NCBI RefSeq assembly: GCF_000027125.1
Contig: NC_017626.1
Length of the DNA stretch: 64,000 bases
Reading direction: 5' to 3' (one strand)
Origin: Escherichia coli 042
GTDB lineage: Bacteria; Pseudomonadota; Gammaproteobacteria; Enterobacterales; Enterobacteriaceae
The number at the start of each line of letters is the position of its first letter. Position 1 is the stretch's first letter. The notes under the pieces are model-generated. The model made no database searches and had not been told where the DNA came from. It saw nothing but the letters and a program-made list of their open reading frames with translations. This document shows positions 35,747 to 35,912 of this stretch, one piece after another. The translations under genes were made by a program, and so were the position numbers.

Positions 35747-35912
35747 CTTTTTAGTAAAACAAAGTCTACTAAAGACTATCAAGGCCGCACCTCACAAGGG
35801 TTGCGGCCTTTTTCATGTCTAGCAGAGTCTACTGAGAATTGCTAGAAGCTACGCATTATGGGACCCTTATATGGACCCACCGACTGGGTCCAATAATTTG
35901 AGGGTCCAATAC

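What the first reader, a model, noticed from the sequence alone, without database searches (positions are those of the whole stretch)
35860..35912. Four GGACCC/GGGTCC hexamers immediately upstream of the integrase start
GGGACCC (35860), GGACCCA (35873) and two direct repeats GGGTCCAATA (35886, 35902) sit within about 50 bp before the int ATG; the first two are in inverted orientation to the last two. They could be arm-type integrase or AlpA-type regulator binding sites that control int expression or excision.
Basis: seen in the sequence. Interest (0 to 1): 0.4.

Follow-up and report, generated by a model that had tools for sequence, protein, structure and literature searches.

The report
Integrase arm-binding sites before int
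The four GGACCC/GGGTCC repeats just upstream of the integrase gene are real and strongly conserved. They are most likely docking sites for the integrase's own N-terminal domain on the arm of the island's attachment site, an arrangement already known from phage P4 and the KplE1 prophage.

Summary
Four of the nine GGGTCC/GGACCC hexamers in the 64-kb window lie within 35861-35907, and 1000 shuffles never gave more than two in 60 bp.

Each hexamer is the core of a 12-nt site, T-T-W-T-K-G-G-A-C-C-C-W. Two sites are exactly adjacent (35856-67, 35868-79). Two more are inverted (35885-96, 35901-12), and the last overlaps the int ribosome-binding site.

The element is a 26-kb mobilisable island inserted in ssrA. 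Its integrase is P4-like with an N-terminal arm-DNA-binding domain.

- The sites are invariant across at least 12 genera, while the spacers between them vary.
- The same 2+2 layout, with sites 1 and 2 always 12 bp apart, recurs in about 80 relatives and in phage P4.
- The P4 GenBank record annotates the equivalent repeats as "attP arm sequence repeat".
- The motif changes with the integrase N-terminal domain, not with the catalytic domain and not with the AlpA-like protein.

Best reading: these are arm-type Int sites of attL, and they probably also give negative autoregulation of int. An mRNA hairpin is possible only as a secondary role. This is a new member of a known kind and of modest interest.

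The parts
35384..35746 (+). ssrA (tmRNA) gene, the integration target. Its 3' end carries the attL core.
   Evidence: ARAGORN and the PGAP annotation of the identical locus.
35733..35746 (+). attL core region, CGCCAGCTCCACCA. The block CGCCAGC is the part repeated at attR.
   Evidence: Three-way alignment of attL, attR and an empty-site strain.
35762..35779 (+). Second repeat family: AAGTCTACT followed by AAAGACTAT, 9-10 bp apart. A third copy is at 35825-35833. Candidate AlpA/RDF sites; this assignment is inferred.
   Evidence: the repeat finder families D2 and I6. The family co-varies across islands (GTCTAC or GTTCAG). It is unchanged in E500002, where AlpA is also essentially unchanged. It resembles the TorI sites GTTCG/GATCG/GTCCG of KplE1.
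35783..35813 (+). Island-supplied ssrA terminator hairpin: GGCCGCA ... TGCGGCC followed by a run of T.
   Evidence: Sequence. Compensatory arm changes GGCCGCA/TGCGGCC versus GCCCGCA/TGCGGGC in relatives. The terminator scan hits the equivalent hairpin in L012 and L047.
35825..35833 (+). Third copy of the AGTCTAC repeat family (GAGTCTACT).
35834..35843 (+). Conserved block GAGAATTGCT of unknown role. It could be part of a weak int promoter or a host-factor site.
   Evidence: Nearly invariant in 17 sequences from about 12 genera. No sigma-70 consensus match.
35856..35867 (+). Arm-type site 1 (P'1), TTATGGGACCCT.
   Evidence: Matrix score 20.5 bits, the best hit in the window. Invariant core in relatives.
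35868..35879 (+). Arm-type site 2 (P'2), TATATGGACCCA. It abuts site 1, giving a 12-bp repeat spacing.
   Evidence: The 12-bp spacing of sites 1 and 2 holds in all subfamilies and in P4.
35885..35896 (-). Arm-type site 3 (P'3), inverted. It reads TTATTGGACCCA on the minus strand.
   Evidence: 16.6 bits; conserved.
35901..35912 (-). Arm-type site 4 (P'4), inverted. It reads GTATTGGACCCT on the minus strand, overlaps the Shine-Dalgarno GAGG (35900-35903) and ends 1 nt before the ATG.
   Evidence: 16.8 bits; conserved GAGGGTCC.
35913..37142 (+). int: P4-like tyrosine integrase of 409 aa. Residues 8-95 form the arm-DNA-binding domain.
   Evidence: Pfam PF13356 (1.9e-23), PF22022 and PF00589. NCBIfam PRK09692. 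PDB 3JU0 and 3JTZ arm-binding domains at E 7.7e-14 and 1.1e-11. PGAP start codon.
60281..60499 (-). AlpA-family helix-turn-helix protein (candidate RDF/regulator), near the far end of the island.
   Evidence: Pfam PF05930, E 9.3e-18. PGAP annotates a helix-turn-helix regulator here.
62027..62048 (+). Candidate far-arm (P-arm) sites AAATGGTTCC and AATTGAACCC, 12 bp apart and 64 bp from the attR core. Weak evidence.
   Evidence: Their position and spacing match the P4 and K-12 far-arm pairs and S792. The matrix score is only 4.0 bits, rank 35.
62112..62118 (+). attR core remnant CGCCAGC. Bacterial flank resumes by 62119 (CAATCATGATTGG; the megablast match to empty-site genomes starts at 62114).
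   Evidence: Alignment with the empty-site strain W5-6.

Best explanation
The four repeats are the int-proximal (P') arm-type binding sites of the island's attachment site. Each 12-nt site, TTWTKGGACCCW, is read by the N-terminal arm-DNA-binding domain (residues ~8-95) of the adjacent P4-like integrase. The catalytic domain of the same protein binds the core at the ssrA 3' end, about 110-165 bp away.

Bridging arm and core, probably with a bending protein and the AlpA-like RDF, would assemble the intasome for integration and excision.

The sites fill the last 57 bp before the int start codon, and the last one covers the ribosome-binding site. Int occupancy is therefore expected to repress int as well, giving negative autoregulation as in P4 and KplE1.

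Shown here: the sites exist, are non-random, are conserved, share their layout with the annotated P4 arm repeats, and co-vary with the Int N-domain. Inferred: physical binding, intasome function and autoregulation.
For: 1. Int carries an arm-binding domain: PF13356 at E 1.9e-23, and homology to the solved arm-binding domains 3JU0 and 3JTZ.

2. The P4 GenBank record annotates 'attP arm sequence repeat' at the same place. Two abutting 12-mers are followed by an inverted copy that overlaps the int ATG, and two more copies lie on the far arm.

3. In 17 sequences from about 12 genera the four cores are invariant while the spacers diverge. All 24 loci of this type keep the ssrA end 164-176 bp from the ATG.

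4. About 80 relatives from Enterobacterales to Pseudomonas keep the 2+2 layout and the 12-bp spacing of sites 1 and 2, but with different motifs.

5. The motif tracks a signature in the N-domain (the stretch around the conserved Trp) with no exception in the large groups:
- KGGKKNWY[FL]RY with GG[GC]ACCC, 27 loci
- GKKLWRFRY with GGTA[TC]ACG, about 32 loci
- GS[TK]LWNFNY with GGTATTCCA, 14 loci

6. There are natural module swaps. E500002, E7476, L026 and L027 have catalytic regions 88-91% identical to the window's. Their N-domains are only 67-68% identical, and sites 2-4 are switched to GGnTACTAAA.

7. In E500002 the AlpA-like protein is 90% identical, with one substitution (N/D) across the aligned core.

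8. K-12 CP4-57 has two motif copies on the far arm, about 63 bp from the core.

9. Literature: P4 Int represses its own gene by direct DNA binding near the transcription start. KplE1 IntS does the same through P' sites. PAI I536 IntI represses its own promoter.
Against: - No binding data exist for this integrase.
- The far arm of this island shows only weak matches to the motif (4.0 bits, rank 35). The classical requirement for arm sites on both arms is therefore not clearly met here.
- The N-domain and the sites are physically adjacent. Part of their co-variation could be co-inheritance by recombination rather than co-adaptation.
- No sigma-70 consensus promoter was found in this subfamily, so overlap of the sites with the promoter, and hence autoregulation, is not demonstrated.
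- Inverted repeats would also form an mRNA hairpin.
Confidence: 0.75

Rival explanations
1. The repeats are an operator for the island's AlpA-like protein (RDF/regulator). AlpA would bind them to activate or repress int transcription and to direct excision.
For: - An AlpA-family gene is present at 60281-60499.
- K-12 AlpA is annotated as a transcriptional activator.
- RDFs of KplE1, and per Pina-Iturbe 2018 of the Vibrio islands, repress int by binding attL.
- ROD21 SEN1998 binds attL and attR.
Against: - E500002 has an AlpA-like protein that is 90% identical, with one substitution (N/D) across the aligned core, yet its motif is switched.
- Islands with other cargo, and remnants with no AlpA in reach, keep the sites.
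- Known RDF sites are direct repeats about one helical turn apart (abstract of PMC7498355), not a 2+2 inverted set.
- A better candidate for AlpA exists: the AGTCTAC repeat family at 35762-35833, which stays constant when AlpA does.
- ROD21 RDF binding maps close to the island ends rather than next to int.
Confidence: 0.08
2. The inverted repeats act mainly at the RNA level. In the int 5' UTR they would fold into a nested hairpin that sequesters the ribosome-binding site or causes premature termination, limiting Int synthesis.
For: - The predicted fold of 35850-35930 is -29.6 kcal/mol with z = -3.9. It pairs GAGGG (the Shine-Dalgarno sequence) with CCCUU.
- Concerted changes of both arms across subfamilies look like compensatory changes.
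- In P4, Vis is suggested to bind the int mRNA, which is post-transcriptional control.
Against: - An RNA stem does not explain why site 1 resembles site 2 and site 3 resembles site 4, flanks included. It also does not explain the fixed 12-bp spacing.
- It does not explain the motif copies beyond the core on the far arm in P4 and K-12.
- In relatives with a recognisable promoter, the -35 and -10 lie inside the cassette. Those mRNAs would lack sites 1-2, so the hairpin could not form.
- Most relatives have GGCACCC at site 1, an uncompensated mismatch with site 4.
Confidence: 0.07
3. The repeats are an operator for some other dimeric or tetrameric repressor, host-encoded or island-encoded, that is unrelated to recombination.
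For: The inner pair is a perfect 8-bp palindrome with a 5-bp spacer, which is typical of operators for dimeric regulators.
Against: - The only protein consistently encoded next to the sites, across islands with unrelated cargo and across hosts from Pseudomonas to E. coli, is Int.
- The motif co-varies with the Int N-domain.
- P4 annotates the equivalent repeats as arm repeats.
Confidence: 0.05

Closest known systems
Phage P4 attP arm repeats and Pint autoregulation (Pierson & Kahn 1987; Piazzolla et al. 2006; GenBank X51522)
   Same: - Both have a P4-family integrase with the same N-terminal domain family.
- In both, int lies directly downstream of the core.
- Both have two abutting 12-nt direct repeats followed by inverted copy or copies that run into the int start codon.
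- In P4 a promoter-like sequence overlaps the repeats.
- P4 Int represses int by DNA binding.
   Different: - The motif is GGGGGCA in P4 and GGACCC here.
- P4 has three proximal copies; this island has four.
- P4 targets a leucine tRNA gene (leuX, from my own knowledge; the record gives only the attP core); this island targets ssrA.
- P4 has clear far-arm copies; here they are only weak.
- P4 has a good sigma-70-like Pint; none is recognisable here.
- This element is a mobilisable island with MobQ, TraD and DotA/TraY genes, not a satellite phage.
KplE1 (CPS-53) attL / intS regulation (Panis et al. 2010, PMC2951348)
   Same: - The gene order is tRNA-type gene, then attL, then int in the same orientation, with an intergenic region of about 166 bp.
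- Both have four P' arm-type sites between the promoter region and the int ATG, with RDF sites upstream of them.
- KplE1 shows negative regulation by both Int and the RDF.
   Different: - The integrase subfamily, motif (TAAA-containing in KplE1) and site orientations differ.
- KplE1 regulation is experimentally shown, whereas here it is inferred.
E. coli K-12 CP4-57 (intA/alpA) at ssrA
   Same: - The integration site is the same, and both have a P4-like Int and an AlpA.
- attL has two direct copies and one inverted copy of a motif before the intA ATG.
- attR has two copies about 63 bp from the core.
   Different: - The motif is AGGCCCA, and the Int N-domain is only 56% identical.
- CP4-57 has three proximal sites rather than four, and different cargo.
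Lambda Int arm-type sites (P1, P2, P'1-P'3)
   Same: Both follow the heterobivalent integrase principle. N-domain sites on the arms, about 50-150 bp from the core, are distinct in sequence from the core sites.
   Different: Lambda int is not transcribed through attL, and its sites do not overlap its promoter. From my own recollection of Szwagierczak et al. 2009 (not read here), the P4/HPI-type N-domain is a four-stranded sheet and lambda's is three-stranded.

Membership tests
Arm-type sites of a heterobivalent tyrosine integrase (lambda/P4 paradigm) | The adjacent integrase has a dedicated N-terminal arm-DNA-binding domain. | tested here: met
   PF13356 at residues 8-95, E 1.9e-23. PDB 3JU0 and 3JTZ arm-binding domains, E 7.7e-14 and 1.1e-11.
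Arm-type sites of a heterobivalent tyrosine integrase (lambda/P4 paradigm) | Several copies of a ~10-12-nt motif, different from the core sequence, lie within about 200 bp of the crossover core. | tested here: met
   Four 12-nt sites lie 110-166 bp from the ssrA 3' end. The clustering is far beyond chance.
Arm-type sites of a heterobivalent tyrosine integrase (lambda/P4 paradigm) | Motif copies are present on both arms (P and P'). | tested here: inconclusive
   The far arm has AAATGGTTCC and AATTGAACCC at the expected position and 12-bp spacing, but the best score is only 4.0 bits, rank 35. S792 shows the same pattern. The feature is clearly met in P4 and K-12 CP4-57.
Arm-type sites of a heterobivalent tyrosine integrase (lambda/P4 paradigm) | Site sequence co-varies with the integrase arm-binding domain across relatives. 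| tested here: met
   N-domain signature versus motif shows no exception in the large groups. In the module-swap lineages the N-domain is 67-68% identical and the rest 88-91%.
Arm-type sites of a heterobivalent tyrosine integrase (lambda/P4 paradigm) | The Int N-domain physically binds the sites, and the sites are required for recombination. | not testable with these tools
   Needs EMSA or footprinting and recombination assays.
Negatively autoregulated int with attL overlapping Pint (KplE1/P4 paradigm) | The t(m)RNA gene and int have the same orientation, and the intergenic region is long enough to hold attL. | tested here: met
   ssrA end to int ATG is 166 bp, both on the + strand. Panis et al. 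give 80-170 nt for an attL region.
Negatively autoregulated int with attL overlapping Pint (KplE1/P4 paradigm) | The int promoter overlaps the Int-binding sites. | tested here: inconclusive
   No sigma-70 consensus in the window or in L012. My own candidate pairs match only about 8 of 12 positions. In relatives, consensus promoters do overlap sites 1-2 (L047; P4). Site 4 overlaps the Shine-Dalgarno sequence.
Negatively autoregulated int with attL overlapping Pint (KplE1/P4 paradigm) | int expression falls when Int is supplied. | not testable with these tools
   Needs a reporter fusion with and without Int.
RDF (AlpA/Xis/TorI-type) binding sites | Sites are direct repeats phased about one helical turn apart, and they follow the identity of the RDF. 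| tested here: not met
   The arrangement is 2+2 inverted with spacings of 12, 17 and 16 bp between 12-mer starts. The motif switches while AlpA stays 90% identical.
Cis-acting mRNA hairpin that occludes the ribosome-binding site | A stable structure includes the Shine-Dalgarno sequence, is transcribed as one unit, and is conserved by pairing rather than by sequence. | tested here: inconclusive
   The fold is stable (-29.6 kcal/mol, z -3.9). The transcription start is unknown. In relatives the promoters lie inside the cassette. The site 1 variant GGCACCC is uncompensated.

The most novel reading that the evidence does not exclude
The 2+2 cassette may be bifunctional. As DNA it would be the arm-site array for intasome assembly and Int autorepression. 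As RNA, in this subfamily (which lacks the internal promoter seen in P4 and CP4-57-like relatives), the same inverted sites would fold into a -29.6 kcal/mol hairpin that hides the int ribosome-binding site. Int synthesis would then be gated at two levels by one sequence.

Separately, the roughly 80-locus table pairing N-domain signatures with motifs could serve as a first recognition code for the Arm-DNA-bind_3 domain.
Probability: 0.15. Interest if true: 0.5.

Novelty: new member of a known kind. Interest (0 to 1): 0.3.

Why it matters
It gives the attL architecture of an unstudied family of ssrA-inserted mobilisable islands spread across Enterobacterales: core, candidate RDF sites, an island-supplied ssrA terminator, then four Int arm sites running into the int start codon.

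It predicts that int is kept low by its own product, as in P4 and KplE1.

The comparative table linking N-domain sequence signatures to arm-site motifs has two practical uses. It can help predict which islands cross-react with each other's integrases, and it can guide the design of specificity-swap experiments.

It does not reveal a new kind of system.

Tried and rejected
1. Restriction-modification link. All four sites contain GGWCC, and the island carries a methyltransferase. I rejected a link because the methyltransferase resembles adenine-specific enzymes. The motif is also conserved in islands with unrelated cargo, and GGWCC is simply rare in the AT-rich island.

2. Exact ssrA 3'-end direct repeat at the other island end. 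None was found with up to 3 mismatches in 18-25 nt. attR had to be located by comparison with an empty-site strain.

3. Consensus promoter search in the window and in L012. Nothing was found. My own candidate pairs (cTGAGA-16-caTTAT, or TTTCAT/TTTACG-16/17-GAGAAT) match only about 8 of 12 positions and are not reliable.

4. Far-arm confirmation in other E. coli islands of the same type. The ET881 island is truncated by IS1. S792 gave the same weak pattern as the window. The far arm of E500002 is uninformative because its attL/int-5' module looks recombinant.

5. Piazzolla et al. 2006 could not be read. Its content is cited only through Panis 2010.

6. The upstream in-frame ATG at 35871 as the true int start. 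I rejected it because it has no ribosome-binding site, PGAP and all homologues use the ATG at 35913, and GAGG lies 9 nt upstream of that ATG.

Full report
**Context**

The window is E. coli chromosome. smpB (34687-35169) and the tmRNA gene ssrA (35384-35746) are followed by a P4-like integrase gene whose PGAP start is the ATG at 35913.

Downstream lie a DUF3644 gene, a methyltransferase, MobQ relaxase, TraD, two H-NS-like genes, a SEN1982-type lipoprotein and DotA/TraY and TraW genes. An AlpA-family gene sits at 60281-60499 on the minus strand.

Comparison with an empty-site strain puts the right junction at 62112-62118. There the sequence is gggaCGCCAGC|CAATCATGATTGG, where attB reads CGCCAGCTCCACCAATCATG. 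The island is therefore about 26.4 kb, and attR lacks 5 bp of the ssrA end.

**Observation**

GGGTCC/GGACCC occurs nine times in 64 kb against 15 expected, and four of the nine fall within 35861-35907. In 1000 dinucleotide shuffles no 60-bp stretch held more than two.

Aligning the sites on their cores gives a 12-nt unit:
- Site 1: TTATGGGACCCT (35856-67)
- Site 2: TATATGGACCCA (35868-79)
- Site 3, minus strand: TTATTGGACCCA (35885-96)
- Site 4, minus strand: GTATTGGACCCT (35901-12)

Sites 1 and 2 abut exactly. Site 4 covers the GAGG ribosome-binding sequence and ends one base before the ATG. The inner pair is a perfect 8-bp inverted repeat.

A weight matrix trained only on homologues ranks sites 1, 4 and 3 as the three best hits in the whole window. 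Site 2 ranks 11th.

**Conservation**

E. coli genomes hold related ssrA islands at 76-91% DNA identity.

In these islands, and in 17 sequences from about 12 genera (Hafnia, Yersinia, Dickeya, Brenneria, Citrobacter, Buttiauxella, Pluralibacter and others), the four cores are invariant while the spacers between them differ freely. Of the 24 loci of this type, 23 keep the ssrA end 164-166 bp from the ATG and one keeps it at 176 bp.

**What reads the sites**

The integrase has an Arm-DNA-bind_3 domain at residues 8-95. This domain is homologous to the solved arm-binding domains 3JU0 and 3JTZ.

Among about 80 relatives retrieved from species-representative genomes, the same layout recurs immediately before the int start: two sites 12 bp apart, then inverted copies. 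The motif differs by subfamily.

The motif tracks a short N-domain signature around a conserved Trp:

| N-domain signature | Arm-site motif | Loci |
|---|---|---|
| KGGKKNWY[FL]RY, with a 3-residue insertion | GG[GC]ACCC | 27 |
| GKKLWRFRY | GGTA[TC]ACG | about 32 |
| GS[TK]LWNFNY | GGTATTCCA | 14 |
| GKK[VI]WYFNY | AGTACCC | 4 |
| GSKLWQFRY (K-12 IntA) | AGGCCCA | 1 |
| GSKYWRMKY (P4) | GGGGGCA | 1 |

Four loci are natural swaps: E500002, E7476, Enterobacter asburiae and Kluyvera. Their catalytic parts are 88-91% identical to the window's. Their N-domains are only 67-68% identical, and sites 2-4 have changed in concert to GGnTACTAAA.

Relatives that are more distant overall (82-89% in the catalytic part) but keep the N-domain signature also keep GGGTCC.

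The E500002 island belongs to the same family. Its AlpA-like protein is 90% identical, with one substitution (N/D) across the aligned core, and the second repeat family (AGTCTAC) is unchanged.

A caveat applies. The N-domain coding region and the sites are adjacent, so co-inheritance contributes to the correlation.

**Comparison with known systems**

The GenBank record of phage P4 annotates "attP arm sequence repeat" at exactly the equivalent place. ATTGGGGGCATA and ATTGGGGGCATC abut each other, and an inverted copy overlaps the int ATG. Two further copies lie on the other arm, 54 bp from the core.

K-12 CP4-57 shows the same plan. attL has TTAGGCCCA, then ATAGGCCCA, then an inverted TGGGCCTAA before the intA ATG. 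attR has TTAGGACCA and TGGGACCA about 63 bp from the core.

According to Panis et al. 2010, P4 Int represses its own gene by direct DNA binding near the transcription start. KplE1 IntS does the same through four P' sites that lie between the -10 and the ATG, with RDF (TorI) sites upstream near the -35. PAI I536 integrase also represses its own promoter.

The window has the same order of parts: core, AGTCTAC repeats (candidate RDF sites), terminator, then four arm sites running into int.

**Mechanism proposed**

The Int N-domains would bind the four P' sites while the catalytic domains bind the core. Together with a bending factor and the AlpA-like RDF they would build the intasome. Occupancy of sites that extend to the ribosome-binding site and start codon would lower int expression.

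The binding, the recombination role and the autoregulation are all inferred. I put 0.75 on the arm-site identity and about 0.55 on autoregulation.

**Weak points**

1. This island's far arm has only poor matches: AAATGGTTCC and AATTGAACCC at 62027-62048. They sit at the right distance and spacing, and S792 shows the same pattern, but the score is only 4.0 bits.

2. No sigma-70 consensus promoter is detectable in this subfamily. Relatives have one inside the cassette: L047 has TTGGTA-17-TATACT over sites 1-2, and P4 has TTGAAA-18-CATAAT. The int promoter here may be weak or activator-dependent. K-12 AlpA is annotated as an activator.

**Rivals**

- **AlpA operator.** Disfavoured by the E500002 comparison and by the 2+2 inverted geometry.
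- **mRNA hairpin.** The 5' region would fold at -29.6 kcal/mol (z = -3.9) and would bury the Shine-Dalgarno sequence. A hairpin does not explain the similarity of site 1 to site 2 and of site 3 to site 4, the fixed 12-bp spacing, or the far-arm copies in P4 and K-12. It is also undercut by promoters that lie inside the cassette in relatives, and by the uncompensated GGCACCC at site 1 in most homologues. It remains possible as an extra layer of control in this subfamily.
- **Another repressor's operator.** Unlikely, because Int is the only constant neighbour of the sites.
- **Restriction-modification connection through GGWCC.** Rejected.

**Verdict**

This is a real, functional-looking feature of a known kind: arm-type sites of a P4-family integrase overlapping the control region of its own gene. 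The specific motif and island subfamily have not, to my knowledge, been described, so it is a new member of a known kind. The family-wide table linking N-domain signature to motif is a modestly useful by-product.

Noticed in passing
window 35762-35779 and 35825-35833: A second repeat family flanks the ssrA terminator: AAGTCTACT, AAAGACTAT and GAGTCTACT. It co-varies across islands (GTCTAC, or GTTCAG in EC42405 and Pluralibacter). P4 and CP4-57-like islands have GTCCG/ATCCG repeats at the same place, which resemble the TorI sites of KplE1. These are likely AlpA/RDF sites.
   Followed up: partly
window 62112-62123, compared with 35733-35746 and L090:1190-1215: attR reads CGCCAGC-CAATCATG, whereas attB and attL read CGCCAGCTCCACCA(ATCATG). 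Five bases (TCCAC) are missing. Precise attL x attR excision might therefore leave a defective ssrA 3' end, or the island may be locked in place. K-12 attR has a different variant, CCGCCAGCCCACCA.
   Followed up: partly
window 35783-35813: The ssrA transcription terminator is supplied by the island. Across relatives its stem changes by compensatory substitutions: GGCCGCA/TGCGGCC versus GCCCGCA/TGCGGGC.
   Followed up: partly
L003:1669-1970, L007:1285-1590, L026, L027: The int 5' end (N-domain, to roughly residue 100-150) and the upstream arm sites have been exchanged as one module between islands whose catalytic domains are about 90% identical. In E7476 this int is preceded by an internal ssrA 3'-end copy, which suggests tandem islands.
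   Followed up: partly
L091:22488-22512 (K-12 CP4-57 attR arm): The K-12 far-arm sites TTAGGACCA and ATGGGACCA resemble the window-type motif (TATGGGACCC) at least as much as K-12's own proximal motif (AGGCCCA). This hints that attR arms at this hotspot are relics of earlier islands of a different Int type.
   Followed up: no
window 61940-62020: GTTCAAC, GCTGAAC and GTTCAGC copies in both orientations lie on the far arm. A similar pair (GTTCAGC ... GTTGAAC) is at the same place in S792 (L094:20372-20400). Function unknown: they could be RDF or host-factor sites, or the control region of the DUF6387 operon.
   Followed up: no
window 35871-35912: An in-frame ATG inside site 2 opens a 14-codon N-terminal extension of Int (MDPPTGSNNLRVQY). 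It has no ribosome-binding site. The P4 record likewise starts int at an ATG inside an arm repeat, four codons upstream of a second ATG.
   Followed up: partly
window 36018-36035 (Int residues ~36-41); alignment A5: All Int N-domains paired with the GGACCC motif share a 3-residue insertion (xKG) just before the conserved GKK-x-W. It is absent from every other motif class, so it may be a specificity determinant.
   Followed up: partly
window 37164-40559: Cargo next to int comprises a DUF3644 protein with a weak restriction-endonuclease-like C-terminus, an adenine-type methyltransferase (38836-39882, minus strand) and a divergent 242-aa ORF with no family match. This may be a restriction-modification or defence module.
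   Followed up: no
window 62271 onward, compared with L008: The 100%-matching strain AHB1 diverges from the window right after the island and the terminator at 62249-62272. AHB1 runs into glaH, whereas the window continues into a ypjA-like autotransporter gene (62281-63873, minus strand). The region next to attR is therefore variable among strains that carry the same island.
   Followed up: partly
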